Shown one piece after another: positions 44,677 to 47,925 of a stretch of 64,000 bases of DNA (positions are counted from its first letter, which is position 1; every line of letters starts with the position of its first letter). The stretch lies in the sequence record MN850579.1; one strand, 5' to 3'. This DNA is from Escherichia phage mogra. The translations under genes and the position numbers were made by a program. The notes under the pieces were generated by a model that was not told the origin of the DNA, ran no database searches, and saw only the letters and a program-made list of their open reading frames with translations.

Positions 44677-44884
44677 ATTAATCCAGAAATTGTTTGGTAC
44701 GGAAATGATTGAAGTTACTTATCGTGTAACCGACGTTTTTCCATATTACGCGGAAAACCGTTTAGAACCATACGTTACGTCAATTAAAATGCCTAAAAAT
44801 GACAGAAATTTATCTATCGAAGACCGTATACCTGGATACGGACATTGGGCTGATGTTGAAATTATAAGTGTTAAAGATGTCTGA
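44666..44884 (+). CDS. hypothetical protein (72 aa)
   Basis: Coupled ORF; no motif. Confidence 0.45.
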   Translation: MLNKLIQKLFGTEMIEVTYRVTDVFPYYAENRLEPYVTSIKMPKNDRNLSIEDRIPGYGHWADVEIISVKDV

Positions 44885-45335
44885 ATTAGAAATAAGAAGT
44901 AATTTCAAATGGCCGTCATGTGCATTAAGTAACTTTGCTCAATGGCCTTTTGTTATGGATGGTATTCAATTCGGAGGTCTTGAAGGATTTCTCCAAGGAT
45001 GTAAGGTGAAAAATGTTGAACAACAAAGACGTATATTTGGGTTGTCTGGATTGGCTGCACAGCAAGCTGGAAGGTCTTACGCAAGAGCTCAGGACCGTGG
45101 GACTCTCTTCTGGTTAGGAGTTCCATTTTCAAGATACTCCGAAGCGTGGAAAGAATTATACACAAATGCATATTTTGAAGCCGCGATCCAAAACAAGGGG
45201 TTTCGTGATGCCTTACAAGCCTCTAAAGGAAAAATTTTGAAGCACAGCATGGCCAGCCACCTAACAAAAGATGATACAATACTAACTGAAGATGAATTTA
45301 TTGACGTGTTAAACCTATTAAGAGACTCTTTATGA
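44877..45335 (+). CDS. NADAR-domain (YbiA-like) protein, putative N-glycosidase / ADP-ribosyl hydrolase (152 aa from ATG 44877)
   Basis: ...CALSNFAQWPFVMDGIQFGGLEGFLQGCKV... matches the YbiA/NADAR core (SNFAAWPIKVDGKTWPTSEHYFQAQKF in E. coli YbiA as recalled), plus a downstream ...AIQNKGFRDALQASKGKIL... block. Confidence 0.6.
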   Translation: MSELEIRSNFKWPSCALSNFAQWPFVMDGIQFGGLEGFLQGCKVKNVEQQRRIFGLSGLAAQQAGRSYARAQDRGTLFWLGVPFSRYSEAWKELYTNAYFEAAIQNKGFRDALQASKGKILKHSMASHLTKDDTILTEDEFIDVLNLLRDSL

Positions 45336-46156
45336 AGCCTACTATTTTGACTGATATTGATGGTGTATGTTTAAGCTGGCAATCTGGACTTCCTTATTTT
45401 GCCCAAAAATATAACCTTCCATTAGAACATATTTTAAAAATGATTCAGGACGAAAAATTTATTTCTCCTGGTAAACTGTTCAATACCGACGATAACCTTG
45501 GTAAACAATTAATAGAAAAATATAATAGCTCTGATTTTATTCGTTACTTAGCGCCTTATTCTGATGCTCTTCGAGTTATCAATAAACTAAAAGAAGACTA
45601 TAATTTTGTAGCCGTGACGGCGCTAGGTGATTCAATTGATGCTCGATTGAATAGACAATTTAATTTGAATGCTTTGTTCCCAGGCGCTTTCTCTGAAGTA
45701 ATGATGTGTGGTCATGATTCTTCAAAGGAACAATTATTCGAACTAGCTAAAACAAAATATAACATAATTTGTTACGTTGACGATTTAGCTCATCATTGTG
45801 ACCATGCGGCAGAAATTCTTAATGTACCGATTTATTGGTTGGCTCGTGGTGAACGTGATGCCATTCCTCGTACTGCACAACGTGTACACACGTGGGATGA
45901 TATTGAATCTCGTTTGGTTCCACCTGAGCATAATTCAGATTCAGATCGTGAAGACCTTTTAAAACGATTGGCGGATTTGCTTAAAGAATCTGGTGCAACA
46001 AGTCCAGGTGCATGGCCTAATCAAATTGGTGGCCCCTCGACAACACGTACTCCATATACCTGGCGAACCCCAGGACCAACTGATATGCAACCGTGGTGGA
46101 CGATTCAAAACTTTCCTTTAGATTCGTCTAAATGGACTTGGACTATAAATTGTTAA
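45332..46156 (+). CDS. HAD-superfamily phosphatase-like protein with Trp/Pro-rich C-terminal tail (274 aa)
   Basis: HAD motif I ...ILTDIDGVCLSW... (DxDGV), motif II ...FVAVTAL..., motif IV ...ICYVDDLAHH...; the last 50 aa (PGAWPNQIGGPSTTRTPYTWRTPGPTDMQPWWTIQNFPLDSSKWTWTINC) have unusual low-complexity composition. Confidence 0.5.
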   Translation: MKPTILTDIDGVCLSWQSGLPYFAQKYNLPLEHILKMIQDEKFISPGKLFNTDDNLGKQLIEKYNSSDFIRYLAPYSDALRVINKLKEDYNFVAVTALGDSIDARLNRQFNLNALFPGAFSEVMMCGHDSSKEQLFELAKTKYNIICYVDDLAHHCDHAAEILNVPIYWLARGERDAIPRTAQRVHTWDDIESRLVPPEHNSDSDREDLLKRLADLLKESGATSPGAWPNQIGGPSTTRTPYTWRTPGPTDMQPWWTIQNFPLDSSKWTWTINC

Positions 46157-46165
46157 GGGTTAATT

Positions 46166-46435
46166 ATGTTTGTAGTTCATGATATTACAGATGGCAAAAA
46201 TACCACACGTGACTACGGTCACGTTAACATGTTCTTTCGAGACTGGCCATTGTTTCGTTCAGTAAAAGACGCAGAAATATTTAAAGAGTGTGTTGAACAA
46301 GGGTTCATCTACATTTCAGAATACTATGTTGAAGGACTCGGTAAATGGATTACCACTTATCAGAAAACGCTGAAATCGCTTCTAGATGAAGTGGCTTATA
46401 ATAGAACCGTAACCAAAATCGAGGATATCAAATGA
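46166..46435 (+). CDS. hypothetical protein (89 aa)
   Basis: ATG ORF immediately upstream of the DNA ligase gene and coupled to it (ATGA). Confidence 0.45.
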   Translation: MFVVHDITDGKNTTRDYGHVNMFFRDWPLFRSVKDAEIFKECVEQGFIYISEYYVEGLGKWITTYQKTLKSLLDEVAYNRTVTKIEDIK

Positions 46436-47925
46436 TTTTAGATATTTTAAACCAAATAGCTGCGATCGGTTCTACTAAAACAAAACAAGAAATCCTTAAG
46501 AAAAATAAGGACAACAAATTACTTGAACGTGTGTATCGTTTAACATATGCACGTGGTATCCAGTATTATATTAAGAAATGGCCAGGACCGGGTGAAAGGT
46601 CTCAAGCGTATGGACTTCTTGAATTAGATGACATGTTGGATTTTATTGAGTTCACATTAGCCACTCGTAAACTCACCGGTAATGCTGCAATTAAAGAGCT
46701 CATGGGTTATATCGCTGACGGTAAACCTGATGATGTAGAAGTCCTTCGTCGTGTAATGATGCGCGACCTTGAAGTAGGTGCTTCAGTGTCTATCGCGAAT
46801 AAGGTGTGGCCTGGACTTATTCAATTGCAACCACAGATGTTAGCATCTGCATATGATGAGAAATTGATTACTAAAAATATTAAATGGCCTGCATTTGCCC
46901 AATTAAAAGCAGATGGTGCTCGTTGTTTCGCTGAAGTTCGCGATGATGGTGTTCAATTCTTTTCTCGTGCCGGTAACGAATATCATGGTCTTACTCTATT
47001 AGCGGATGAACTGATGGAAATGACTAAAGAAGCTCGTGAAAGACACCCTAATGGGGTTTTAATCGACGGTGAATTAGTTTACCATTCATTTGATATTAAA
47101 AAGGCTGTGAGCTCAGGAAATGACCTGTCGTTCTTATTTGGTGATAATGAAGAATCCGAAGAAGTACAAGTTGCGGACCGTAGCACTTCAAACGGTTTAG
47201 CAAATAAATCTCTTCAAGGGACTATTTCTCCTAAAGAAGCTGAAGGTATGGTTCTTCAAGCCTGGGACTATGTTCCTTTAGATGAAGTCTATTCTGATGG
47301 CAAAATTAAAGGTCAGAAATACGATGTTCGTTTTGCTGCTCTTGAAAATATGGCTGAAGGCTTTAAACGAATTGAGCCAATTGAAAATCAGTTAGTTCGT
47401 AATCTTGACGAAGCTAAAGTGGTTTATAAAAAATATGTTGACCAAGGTCTTGAAGGTATTATCCTTAAAAACCGTGATTCATATTGGGAAAACAAACGTT
47501 CTAAGAACCTAATTAAATTTAAAGAAGTTATTGATATCGCTTTAGAAGTTGTAGGATACTATGAACACTCTAAAGACCCTAACAAATTAGGTGGTGTCGA
47601 ACTCGTATCACGTTGTCGTCGTATTACAACCGATTGTGGTTCAGGGTTTAAAGATACAACTCATAAAACAGTTGATGGTGTAAAGGTTCTTATTCCTTTA
47701 GATGAGCGACATGATTTGGACCGTGAACGATTAATGACCGAAGCTCGTGAAGGTAAATTGATTGGACGTATTGCTGATTGTGAATGCAATGGTTGGGTTC
47801 ATTCTAAAGGACGTGAAGGCACTGTAGGTATTTTCCTCCCAATTATTAAAGGGTTCCGTTTTGATAAAACAGAAGCGGATTCGTTTGAAGACGTATTTGG
47901 ACCGTGGTCCCAGACAGGTTTATAA
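46432..47925 (+). CDS. 30: ATP-dependent DNA ligase gp30 (497 aa)
   Basis: MILDILNQIAAIGSTKTKQEILKKNKDNKLLERVYRLTYARGIQYYIKKWPGPG... and adenylation motif ...FAQLKADGARCFAEV... match recalled T4 DNA ligase (487 aa). Confidence 0.92.
   Translation: MILDILNQIAAIGSTKTKQEILKKNKDNKLLERVYRLTYARGIQYYIKKWPGPGERSQAYGLLELDDMLDFIEFTLATRKLTGNAAIKELMGYIADGKPDDVEVLRRVMMRDLEVGASVSIANKVWPGLIQLQPQMLASAYDEKLITKNIKWPAFAQLKADGARCFAEVRDDGVQFFSRAGNEYHGLTLLADELMEMTKEARERHPNGVLIDGELVYHSFDIKKAVSSGNDLSFLFGDNEESEEVQVADRSTSNGLANKSLQGTISPKEAEGMVLQAWDYVPLDEVYSDGKIKGQKYDVRFAALENMAEGFKRIEPIENQLVRNLDEAKVVYKKYVDQGLEGIILKNRDSYWENKRSKNLIKFKEVIDIALEVVGYYEHSKDPNKLGGVELVSRCRRITTDCGSGFKDTTHKTVDGVKVLIPLDERHDLDRERLMTEAREGKLIGRIADCECNGWVHSKGREGTVGIFLPIIKGFRFDKTEADSFEDVFGPWSQTGL

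What the first reader, a model, noticed from the sequence alone, without database searches (positions are those of the whole stretch)
45332..46156. HAD-like phosphatase with an atypical Trp/Pro-rich C-terminal extension, coupled to the NADAR gene
Residues 1-190 carry HAD motifs (DIDGV, VAVTA, YVDD), but the last 50 residues are low-complexity and rich in W, P and T (PGAWPNQIGGPSTTRTPYTWRTPGPTDMQPWWTIQNFPLDSSKWTWTINC), which is unlike a typical HAD cap. The gene overlaps the NADAR ORF stop (ATGA), suggesting co-translation in one functional module. The tail could be a targeting or interaction domain, or a sign of an unrecognised frameshift or overlapping gene.
Basis: seen in the sequence. Interest (0 to 1): 0.45.

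Follow-up and report, generated by a model that had tools for sequence, protein, structure and literature searches.

The report
Phage phosphatase with a floppy Trp-rich tail
This is gene 30.2 of an RB69-like T-even phage: a probably nucleotide-directed HAD phosphatase whose last 50 residues are a genuine, translated, disordered Trp/Pro-rich tail that most likely acts as a docking peptide, which makes it a mildly unusual but not extraordinary feature of an uncharacterised gene.

Summary
Window 45332-46156 (+) encodes a 274-aa protein, the orthologue of T4 gp30.2 (phrog_420), in a Mosigvirus (RB69-like) genome.

- **Core:** residues 1-195 form a confidently modelled, C1-capped HAD-superfamily fold with all four catalytic motifs. 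It is closest to 5'(3')-deoxyribonucleotidase-like enzymes.
- **Linker and tail:** residues 203-221 form a helix. Residues 225-274 (6 W, 8 P, 9 T) are predicted to be disordered.
- **The tail is not a frameshift or an overlapping gene.** Only this frame stays open in all lineages examined. Indels are in frame. dN/dS is 0.05-0.34, against 0.01-0.07 for the core.
- **Distribution:** homologous aromatic/Pro-rich tails occur in most enterobacterial T4-like phages and share one short motif, W-x-x-P-G-P-[ST]-D-[LM]-x-[PA]-[WY]-[WY]. A second motif, GTGIEYLxxQPT, is missing here. Tails are absent from basal lineages, have been lost several times and are partly replaced in phage HX01.
- **Neighbours:** the ATGA overlap with the NADAR gene (30.3 = AdfN, anti-DarT1) is real, but this adjacency is limited to T-even lineages. 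Linkage to DNA ligase is far more general.

The tail is most likely a partner-docking peptide. The partner and the substrate are unknown. Interest is modest.

The parts
44877..45335 (+). Gene 30.3 (adfN), a NADAR DNA ADP-ribosylglycohydrolase. It is full length at 152 aa from the ATG at 44877; the ORF listing extends it to a GTG at 44868.
   Evidence: Pfam Phage_30_3 at E=2e-69. 146/152 residues identical to T4 30.3. Function taken from PMC11825919.
45332..45335 (+). ATGA start/stop overlap between 30.3 and 30.2, allowing possible translational coupling.
   Evidence: Read directly from the sequence. The same arrangement is seen in L001 and L003-L015.
45332..46156 (+). Gene 30.2 CDS, 274 aa plus stop.
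   Evidence: phrog_420 at E=1.4e-77. 97-99% identical to many Mosigvirus entries and 69% identical to T4 30.2.
45332..45916 (+). HAD-superfamily catalytic core with a helical C1 cap (residues 1-195; cap about residues 14-86).
45353..45367 (+). HAD motif I, DIDGV (D8 nucleophile, D10 general acid/base).
   Evidence: D8 and D10 are invariant in 94 sequences. The motif aligns to cdN NMDGV; the 2jao entry is the D12N variant.
45608..45622 (+). HAD motif II, VAVTA (T96).
   Evidence: T96 conserved in at least 90% of sequences; A97 invariant.
45725..45727 (+). HAD motif III lysine (K132).
   Evidence: Invariant.
45773..45784 (+). HAD motif IV, YVDD (D150, D151).
   Evidence: Conserved in at least 90% of sequences.
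45938..45994 (+). Charged alpha-helical linker (residues 203-221).
   Evidence: AF2 helix with pLDDT 78-92. The homologue P0026 has a continuous helix over residues 194-223.
46004..46153 (+). Trp/Pro/Thr-rich low-complexity tail (residues 225-274), predicted disordered.
   Evidence: pLDDT 43-69. Composition statistics. dN/dS about 0.33 within Mosigvirus. No Pfam match.
46040..46048 (+). Nine nucleotides (ACAACACGT, residues T237-T238-R239) that are absent in frame from several Mosigvirus relatives.
   Evidence: DNA alignment of the window with L080, L081, L082 and L002.
46052..46099 (+). Conserved short linear motif PYTWRTPGPTDMQPWW (residues 241-256).
   Evidence: A motif HMM matches only gp30.2 tails, across Mosigvirus, Tequatrovirus, the Karamvirus/CC31 group and others. 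This is the best-scoring part of the tail in AF2, at pLDDT 61-69. Tail-only tblastn reaches CC31-group 30.2 at E about 0.01.
46166..46435 (+). Gene 30.1 (DUF3045). Its Shine-Dalgarno-like AAGGG overlaps the 30.2 stop codon.
   Evidence: Pfam DUF3045 at E=1.4e-26. Junction sequence.
46432..47925 (+). Gene 30, the ATP-dependent DNA ligase. It has an ATGA overlap with 30.1 and is the most conserved neighbour of 30.2.

Best explanation
Gene 30.2 encodes a cytoplasmic, Mg-dependent HAD-superfamily phosphomonoesterase with a helical C1 cap. It most resembles 5'(3')-deoxyribonucleotidases, so it probably dephosphorylates a nucleotide or another small phosphorylated metabolite.

A roughly 20-residue charged helix follows the complete fold. 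After it comes an intrinsically disordered 50-residue Trp/Pro/Thr-rich tail, translated in the same frame. The tail is a lineage-specific accessory. It appears to have arisen at the base of a clade of T4-like phages that are mostly enterobacterial, and it evolves quickly by substitution, in-frame indels and replacement of its end. It still keeps one short linear motif, W-x-x-P-G-P-[ST]-D-[LM]-x-[PA]-[WY]-[WY].

I infer that this motif folds only on binding and tethers the phosphatase to a partner protein, either a phage replication or nucleotide-metabolism component or a host protein. Catalysis itself does not need the tail.

Shown: the ORF, the reading frame, the fold, the motifs, the selective constraint and the distribution. 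Inferred: substrate class, disorder and the docking role. Unknown: the partner.
For: **Fold and motifs**
- AF2 gives pLDDT above 90 for residues 1-195.
- D8, D10 and K132 are invariant. T96, D150 and D151 are conserved in at least 90% of sequences.
- NT5C is the Pfam family matched by the most members, 22 of 94, all weakly.
- The profile alignment to mouse cdN pairs DvDGvlvkWqSGL with NMDGVLADFESGL.

**The tail is translated and constrained**
- Only frame +0 is open in every lineage examined.
- Relatives show an in-frame 9-nt indel and many third-position changes.
- Tail dN/dS is 0.05-0.34, against 0.01-0.07 for the core, in six clades.

**The tail is disordered**
- pLDDT is 43-69 here and 42-57 in the CC31-type homologue P0026. 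Neither model shows strand pairing with the core.

**The motif is conserved across genera whose cores are about 50% identical**
- MAFFT aligns the motif without guidance.
- A motif HMM hits only gp30.2 tails among 5,790 six-frame ORFs.
- Tail-only tblastn finds only 30.2 loci, one per genome.

**The tail is dispensable for the core**
- Tailless orthologues of 196-212 aa are nested among tailed ones.
Against: - No partner has been identified, and no multimer prediction was possible.
- The motif does not match the T4-type clamp-binding C-terminus seen in this phage's own gp33 (...TLDFLL).
- The second and better conserved family motif (GTGIEYLxxQPT) is missing from this protein. Whatever that motif does is not done here.
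- Repeated loss of the tail, and replacement of its end in HX01, also fit a weakly useful appendage.
Confidence: 0.55

Rival explanations
1. The tail is an evolutionarily tolerated, essentially functionless disordered appendix. It would be retained by drift or by weak constraints such as mRNA or translation-coupling context for the downstream 30.1-ligase genes.
For: - The tail has been lost in several nested lineages.
- Its end is replaced in HX01, and relatives differ by a 9-nt indel.
- Constraint is relaxed by roughly 4-27-fold relative to the core in five of six clades; in the sixth it is about equal.
- pLDDT is low.
- The tail has no detectable relatives outside gp30.2.
Against: - dN/dS is clearly below 1 in all six clades, and as low as 0.05 in one.
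- A 13-16-residue motif with a near-invariant Trp and Pro persists between genera whose cores are only about 50% identical.
- The extreme Trp and Pro enrichment recurs in independent tail types.
Confidence: 0.2
2. The tail works within the enzyme itself.
For: - The motif region has the highest pLDDT in the tail, 61-69 for residues 241-260.
- A long helix continues from the last core helix.
- cdN/mdN-type HADs are dimers (my own recollection, not checked here).
Against: - Neither AF2 model places the tail with confidence. There is no beta-pairing, pLDDT is at or below 57 in P0026, and the MSAs held 71-94 sequences.
- Tailless orthologues keep every catalytic and cap residue.
Confidence: 0.15
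3. gp30.2 forms one functional module with the NADAR protein AdfN (30.3). It could be the unidentified T-even factor that AdfN needs for full anti-DarT1 activity, with the tail contacting AdfN or its DNA substrate.
For: - The ATGA overlap is conserved in T-even lineages.
- 30.3 and the first 48 codons of 30.2 form a block of low synonymous divergence between this phage and T4. dS is about 0.6 there, against 1.6 or more (saturated) in the flanks.
- PMC11825919 reports that AdfN works fully only during T-even infection and suspects an additional T-even protein.
Against: - Adjacency is lineage-specific. Loci L016-L037, most of them tailed, have no 30.3 within 3 kb upstream, and in some genomes the genes are about 50 kb apart.
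- Both genes are near-universal in T4-like phages, so co-occurrence carries no information.
- Removing ADP-ribose from guanine needs no phosphatase chemistry.
- In the published chimeras the shared transferred region mapped to the 3' part of 30.3, not to 30.2.
Confidence: 0.07
4. The tail is an artefact. It would come from a sequencing or assembly frameshift, or from a separate overlapping or downstream gene fused by mis-annotation.
For: The low-complexity composition and the GC rise to 0.43-0.47 look unlike the rest of the gene. Short alternative ORFs exist at 45993-46121 (+) and 45959-46108 (-).
Against: - The same reading frame is found in more than 140 independent Mosigvirus genomes at 95-99% identity and in T4 itself.
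- Alternative frames carry 3-7 stops here and are not conserved.
- Substitutions are mostly synonymous in this frame.
- Motifs are conserved at the protein level across genera.
Confidence: 0.01

Closest known systems
T4 gp30.2 (NP_049815, 278 aa; PHROG 420), a 'conserved hypothetical protein'
   Same: It is the orthologue. The position is the same (30.3-30.2-30.1-30), the core is about 69-73% identical, it has the same helix plus aromatic/Pro-rich tail architecture, and the WRTPG part of the motif is shared.
   Different: The T4 tail carries GGIEYLYNRPTC and ends in ...DNIFQGAF. The window protein lacks that motif and ends in ...SSKWTWTINC. Tail DNA identity between the two is only about 0.37. 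I found no published function for either protein.
5'(3')-deoxyribonucleotidases cdN/mdN and the NT5C family (PF06941; PDB 2jao, 2i7d, 1q92, 3bwv)
   Different: Sequence similarity is below significance: E=0.34 against the PDB and a best Pfam E of 0.002, below the cut-off. Identity is 15-18%. These enzymes are about 170-200 aa and have nothing equivalent to the helix plus tail. No substrate data exist for gp30.2.
T4 polynucleotide kinase/3'-phosphatase (Pnkp, PDB 1ltq/5uj0)
   Different: By my recollection Pnkp's phosphatase domain is capless and acts on DNA and RNA ends. gp30.2 has a full helical cap, which argues for a small-molecule substrate. They show no sequence relationship.
C-terminal clamp-docking peptides of T4 gp33, gp55 and gp43
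   Same: The concept matches: a short hydrophobic/aromatic motif on a flexible C-terminal tail recruits a phage protein to a hub.
   Different: The motifs differ. This phage's gp33 ends in ...TNTLDFLL. The gp30.2 motif is internal to the tail, Trp/Pro-based, and is followed by 18 more residues. No binding evidence exists.

Membership tests
HAD (haloacid dehalogenase-like) superfamily | Motif I, DxDx(T/V), with a nucleophile Asp and an Asp at +2 | tested here: met
   DIDGV at residues 8-12. D8 and D10 are invariant in 94 homologues.
HAD (haloacid dehalogenase-like) superfamily | Motif II (Ser/Thr), motif III (Lys/Arg) and motif IV (acidic DD/DxxxD) | tested here: met
   T96 (at least 90% conserved), K132 (invariant), D150 and D151 (at least 90% conserved).
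HAD (haloacid dehalogenase-like) superfamily | Rossmannoid alpha/beta core fold | tested here: met
HAD (haloacid dehalogenase-like) superfamily | Score above the curated sequence-model cut-off (Pfam or NCBIfam) | tested here: not met
   HAD_2 scores 15.2 bits against a cut-off of 23.8. TIGR01428 scores 12.2 against 125.4. Other family members give only weak Hydrolase, HAD_2 and NT5C hits. The family is too divergent for the sequence models, so membership rests on fold plus motifs.
HAD (haloacid dehalogenase-like) superfamily | Mg-dependent phosphoryl-transfer activity through an aspartyl-phosphate intermediate | not testable with these tools
   Needs an enzyme assay with a D8N control.
NT5C / 5'(3')-deoxyribonucleotidase subfamily (PF06941) | Significant sequence match to the family model or to cdN/mdN | tested here: not met
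   The best Pfam NT5C E-value is 0.002, with hits in 22 of 94 members, all weak. The profile against 2jao gives E=0.34.
NT5C / 5'(3')-deoxyribonucleotidase subfamily (PF06941) | DxDGV motif I, followed by an aromatic residue at +6 and a small helical C1 cap inserted after strand 1 | tested here: met
   DIDGVCLSWQSGL aligns with cdN NMDGVLADFESGL. Cap helices lie at residues 16-86. 3bwv and cdN/mdN are among the best fold matches.
NT5C / 5'(3')-deoxyribonucleotidase subfamily (PF06941) | dNMP phosphatase specificity | not testable with these tools
   No substrate information can be derived here.
T4 gp30.2 family (PHROG 420) | Full-length profile match and conserved position upstream of 30.1 and DNA ligase | tested here: met
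   phrog_420 at E=1.4e-77 over residues 1-259. Synteny with ligase holds in about 70 of 78 loci. The T4 annotation agrees.
T4-type sliding-clamp (gp45) binding peptide | Extreme C-terminal (S/T)LDFL(L/F/Y)-like motif | tested here: not met
   gp33 of this window ends in TNTLDFLL. gp30.2 ends in KWTWTINC and its conserved motif is PGPTDMQPWW.
Two-gene NADAR-HAD module | Conserved adjacency or coupling of 30.3 and 30.2 wherever both occur | tested here: not met
   The genes are adjacent with a 4-nt overlap in L001 and L003-L015. 30.3 is 0.1-1.7 kb away in many others, absent within 3 kb upstream in L016-L037, and about 50 kb away in some genomes.

The most novel reading that the evidence does not exclude
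The Trp/Pro motif tail may be a previously unrecognised docking peptide that recruits a nucleotide phosphatase to a specific T-even machine. One candidate is the replisome or dNTP-synthetase complex next to ligase. Another is AdfN, which would make gp30.2 the missing T-even-specific cofactor of the anti-DarT1 NADAR enzyme. The rapid turnover of the tail would then reflect co-evolution with that partner or with a host target.
Probability: 0.1. Interest if true: 0.6.

Novelty: new variant of a known kind. Interest (0 to 1): 0.3.

Why it matters
gp30.2 is found in more than 1,400 phage genome records, nearly all T4-like, and I found no paper that addresses its function.

Three results are useful for annotation. 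It is a catalytically intact enzyme of the 5'(3')-deoxyribonucleotidase (NT5C) type. Its odd C-terminus is genuine coding sequence. The tail carries a conserved short motif, which gives experimenters a precise handle: W244, W255 and W256, or a stop at codon 196.

If the tail docks the enzyme to the replication or nucleotide-supply machinery, or to the AdfN counter-defence enzyme, it would add a component to a well-studied system. If it does not, this is one more disordered tail on a phage accessory enzyme.

Tried and rejected
- **Frameshift or overlapping gene: rejected.** I translated the tail in six frames in eight sequences from five of the six lineages studied. Only the annotated frame is always open. 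The antisense frame -0 is open in T4 and the L007 group but has 4 stops here, so that openness is a composition effect.
- **Tail reused on other proteins: no evidence.**
  - Tail-only tblastn against 50,697 phage records found only 30.2 loci.
  - A tail-profile search of 5.8 billion proteins returned only two gp30.2 tail fragments, P0100 and P0101.
  - A tail-profile HMMER search of 1.84 billion representatives returned 0 hits. The profile has only 59 low-information positions, so this search was underpowered and is not evidence of absence.
  - Motif HMMs against six-frame ORFs of the window and 83 loci hit only gp30.2.
  - Pfam finds nothing in the tails even at E up to 10.
- **Tail docking onto its own core: not supported.** A second AF2 run on P0026, which carries both family motifs, still gave pLDDT 42-57 and no strand pairing.
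- **Clamp-binding or PIP-like motif: rejected as a family assignment.** The pattern [LM]-x-x-[WY]-[WY] is superficially PIP-like, but it does not resemble this phage's own gp33 clamp peptide.
- **Distant cellular homologues that might suggest a function: none found.** A profile search returned 142 proteins; every source name among the 120 listed is a phage protein or a generic label, and none gives an experimentally supported function.
- **Solved structures by sequence:** nothing significant.
- **RNA element or promoter/terminator in the tail DNA:** no Rfam match, and promoter and terminator scans were at background level.
- **Literature:** no paper mentions gp30.2. 30.2 appears only as a map label in the AdfN paper.
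Full report
**1. What is in the sequence**

The window comes from an RB69-like T-even phage (genus Mosigvirus). The ORF is 98.7-99.5% identical in DNA to the 25 best-matching records, nearly all of them Escherichia phages (FL18, JM17, APCEc01, PhAPEC2, moha and others). Some records label it '30.2', and a few call it a 'haloacid dehalogenase-like hydrolase domain-containing protein'.

The local gene order is 30.4, 30.3, 30.2, 30.1, then 30 (DNA ligase), as in T4. The upstream gene matches Pfam Phage_30_3 at E=2e-69. The downstream gene is DUF3045.

The 30.3 stop and the 30.2 start share ATGA at 45332-45335. 30.1 and ligase share another ATGA. The 30.2 stop is embedded in an AAGGG Shine-Dalgarno-like sequence for 30.1.

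**2. Is the tail unusual beyond chance?**

Yes.
- The last 50 residues hold 6 Trp, 8 Pro and 9 Thr, against window-wide frequencies of 1.3%, 3.6% and 6.6%.
- Binomial P is 4e-5 for Trp, 4e-4 for Pro and 5e-3 for Thr.
- Of 15,361 50-residue windows in 70 gene-like ORFs, the only five with at least 6 Trp all lie in this ORF.

**3. The core is a HAD enzyme**

- *Sequence models are weak.* Pfam HAD_2 scores 15.2 bits against a cut-off of 23.8, and NCBIfam gives nothing useful.
- *Structure and motifs are clear.* With a 94-sequence alignment, AlphaFold2 gives pLDDT above 90 for residues 1-195. The model is a Rossmannoid core with a helical insertion at residues 14-86, which is a C1 cap.
- *Catalytic residues are intact.* D8, D10 and K132 are invariant. 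T96, D150 and D151 are conserved in at least 90% of sequences.

Three further observations point to the NT5C type. None is significant on its own.
- NT5C is the Pfam family matched, weakly, by the most family members: 22 of 94.
- The family profile aligns DvDGvlvkWqSGL to cdN NMDGVLADFESGL (E=0.34).
- 3bwv shows the highest identity among the listed fold matches.

I therefore call the protein a HAD phosphatase with confidence. The call of a 5'(3')-nucleotidase-like, small-molecule (probably nucleotide) phosphatase is tentative. The presence of a cap argues against a DNA-end phosphatase of the T4 Pnkp type.

**4. The tail is real coding sequence, not a frameshift or a second gene**

- The same frame is found in 149 records covering at least 80% of the gene, nearly all at 95-99% identity, and in T4 itself, where 30.2 is 278 aa.
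- I compared the eight sequences from five lineages in all six frames. Only the annotated frame is open to its stop in every one. The other frames carry 3-7 stops here.
- Among Mosigvirus relatives the tail differs by an in-frame 9-nt indel (window 46040-46048, residues TTR) and by numerous third-position changes.
- Nei-Gojobori estimates in six clades give tail dN/dS of 0.05-0.34, against 0.01-0.07 for the core. The tail is translated and constrained, but less tightly than the core.
- There is no Rfam match, and promoter and terminator scans are at background. GC is higher in the tail (0.43-0.47), which I attribute to its many Pro, Trp and Gly codons.

**5. Comparative anatomy of the tail**

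The family returned 99 proteins at first and 142 with a profile. Every source name among the 120 proteins listed is either a phage protein or a generic label.

- *Length.* Protein lengths run from 176 to 347 aa, while the core always ends at about residue 195.
- *Distribution.* On a neighbour-joining tree of the core, the basal half is tailless; its named members come from Acinetobacter, Serratia, Shewanella, Pantoea, Pectobacterium, Morganella, Citrobacter and Pseudomonas phages. A large derived clade, whose named members infect Escherichia, Klebsiella, Citrobacter, Erwinia and related hosts, mostly carries tails of 45-140 residues. Nearly all of these are aromatic- and Pro-rich. Tailless members of 196-212 aa are nested inside this clade (P0006-P0010, P0054, P0063, P0064, P0070; the IME08-like 212-aa loci L010-L015). 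The simplest reading is one gain and several losses. The tree has no support values, so this is only indicative.
- *Architecture.* All tail types begin with a charged helix. This is modelled with confidence here (residues 203-221, pLDDT 78-92) and in P0026 (residues 194-223). A low-complexity stretch follows.
- *Motif 1.* W-x-x-P-G-P-[ST]-D-[LM]-x-[PA]-[WY]-[WY] appears here as PYTWRTPGPTDMQPWW (residues 241-256). It is shared by Mosigvirus, partly by Tequatrovirus (WRTPGFNPY...), by the CC31/PG7 group (KKWVNPGPSDLKPWY) and by others. A looser C-terminal ...DLRAYY version occurs in further tail types.
- *Motif 2.* G-T-G-I-E-Y-L-x-x-Q-P-T is the best conserved tail element family-wide and is present in T4. 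It is absent from the window protein, whose end (TIQNFPLDSSKWTWTINC) is specific to Mosigvirus. Phage HX01 has yet another end.
- *Specificity.* Both motif HMMs hit only gp30.2 tails among 5,790 six-frame ORFs from the window and 83 loci.
- *Wider searches.* Tail-only searches of phage genomes and of the 5.8-billion-protein collection found nothing outside gp30.2. The search of 1.84 billion representatives found no hit at all, and Pfam found none. The representatives search was underpowered.

**6. Structure of the tail**

Both AF2 runs leave the tail at low confidence. pLDDT is 43-69 here, highest over motif 1. It is 42-57 in P0026, even though that protein has both motifs and the alignment was ordered around tailed members. 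Neither model shows strand pairing with the core. This behaviour fits an intrinsically disordered region whose conserved segments are short linear motifs.

**7. Genomic context and the NADAR link**

30.3 is AdfN, a NADAR DNA ADP-ribosylglycohydrolase that lets T-even phages escape DarTG1. The published work notes that AdfN is fully active only during T-even infection, and it speculates that another T-even protein is needed (PMC11825919).

- *Allele.* The window carries a full-length adfN allele, 146/152 residues identical to T4.
- *Adjacency.* 30.3 and 30.2 are adjacent with a 4-nt overlap in L001 and L003-L015. In other lineages 30.3 lies 0.1-1.7 kb upstream. It is absent within 3 kb upstream in L016-L037, most of which are tailed (CC31/PG7, CIP9, S16 and JD18 groups). 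In some genomes it is about 50 kb away; for example, ValerieMcCarty05 has 30.2 at 121.5 kb and 30.3 at 64 kb, and TG1 has them at 121.5 and 67.7 kb.
- *Co-occurrence.* Both genes are near-universal in T4-like phages (1,438 and 1,510 records with matching taxon counts), so co-occurrence tells us nothing.
- *Ligase.* DNA ligase follows 30.2 in about 70 of 78 loci, usually within about 1.2 kb and directly or after one small ORF.

The 'one functional module' idea is therefore not supported as a general rule. It survives only as a low-probability, T-even-specific hypothesis.

**8. Mechanism and confidence**

- *Shown:* a catalytically intact HAD fold; an in-frame, selected, disordered tail; a conserved motif; and dispensability of the tail in several lineages.
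- *Inferred:* gp30.2 dephosphorylates a small phosphorylated metabolite, probably a (deoxy)nucleotide. The helix plus tail acts as a flexible tether, and motif 1 binds a partner on contact. I put the docking role at about 0.45-0.55.
- *Rivals:* a near-neutral appendage (0.2); a cis or oligomerisation role (0.15); an AdfN cofactor module (0.07); an artefact (0.01).
- *Partner:* I tested the T4 clamp-peptide pattern and it is not met. gp33 of this phage ends in TNTLDFLL.

**9. Novelty and score**

The sequence is well represented in databases, and some annotators already recognise the HAD nature of the core. As far as the searchable literature shows, three points are new:
- the description of the tail as a conserved-in-kind, fast-evolving disordered extension with defined motifs;
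- the exclusion of a frameshift;
- the finding that ligase linkage is more general than NADAR linkage.

This is a modest variant of a known kind of enzyme. I score interest at 0.3.

Noticed in passing
window 44875-45475 (30.3 plus the first ~48 codons of 30.2), compared with T4 locus L083: There is a mosaic block of unusually low divergence from T4. DNA identity is 0.83-0.95 and dS about 0.6 for 30.3 and for 30.2 codons 1-48. In 30.4, the rest of 30.2, 30.1 and ligase, dS is 1.6 or more (saturated). This suggests a relatively recent exchange of the adfN region between Tequatrovirus and this Mosigvirus lineage, with one boundary inside 30.2 near 45475. Unlike RB69, this phage carries the full-length and presumably DarTG1-active adfN allele.
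   Followed up: partly
L082 (Escherichia phage HX01), locus 601-1437: The HX01 gp30.2 is identical in kind up to ...PGPTDM. It then carries an unrelated 27-residue end (LPHWRYTNVGEHPVPPYWAVPQGYGTTKG) in place of QPWWTIQNFPLDSSKWTWTINC. This is a cassette-like replacement of the tail tip within one genus.
   Followed up: partly
L003-L079: gp30.2 is followed by DNA ligase in about 70 of 78 viral loci, usually within about 1.2 kb and directly or after one small ORF. This linkage is much more conserved than the linkage to 30.3. Whether it is functional or only frozen synteny is unknown.
   Followed up: partly
P0065, P0067; L036, L072 (Yersinia phage phiR1-RT/TG1 group): These gp30.2 orthologues of 312-328 aa carry a completely different C-terminal extension that is not low-complexity and probably folds (...KHPKGFGWVYxSNRKNLEEEYTKRFL). 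The C-terminus of this enzyme is therefore a general site for accreting domains.
   Followed up: no
P0080 (347 aa, metagenomic): This gp30.2 homologue has a 150-residue extension that ends in a Cys-rich segment (...CVGCSKEG...YYCGGAPWCCP). That could be a metal-binding module.
   Followed up: no
P0017 (302 aa): Here the gp30.2 core is fused in frame to a DUF3045 (gp30.1) domain. This could be a natural fusion or an assembly or gene-call artefact on a 1.4-kb contig. If real, it hints at a functional link between 30.2 and 30.1.
   Followed up: no
window 44868 vs 44877: The mechanical ORF for 30.3 starts at a GTG at 44868 (155 aa). The T4-equivalent start is the ATG at 44877 (152 aa, MSELEIRS...), which overlaps the end of 30.4 by 8 nt.
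   Followed up: yes
T4 (L083) and L007 tail DNA, antisense frame: The antisense frame -0 of the tail is almost or entirely free of stops in T4 and in the L007 group, but it has 4 stops in Mosigvirus. I read this as a by-product of the Trp/Pro/Gly codon composition rather than a gene.
   Followed up: partly
several gp30.2 tails (window residue 274; P0048, P0045, P0057, P0024; T4 RPTCG): A Cys recurs at or near the extreme C-terminus in otherwise divergent tails (...INC, ...ISC, ...NCKV, ...ITCKV, ...PTCG). Its significance is unknown.
   Followed up: no
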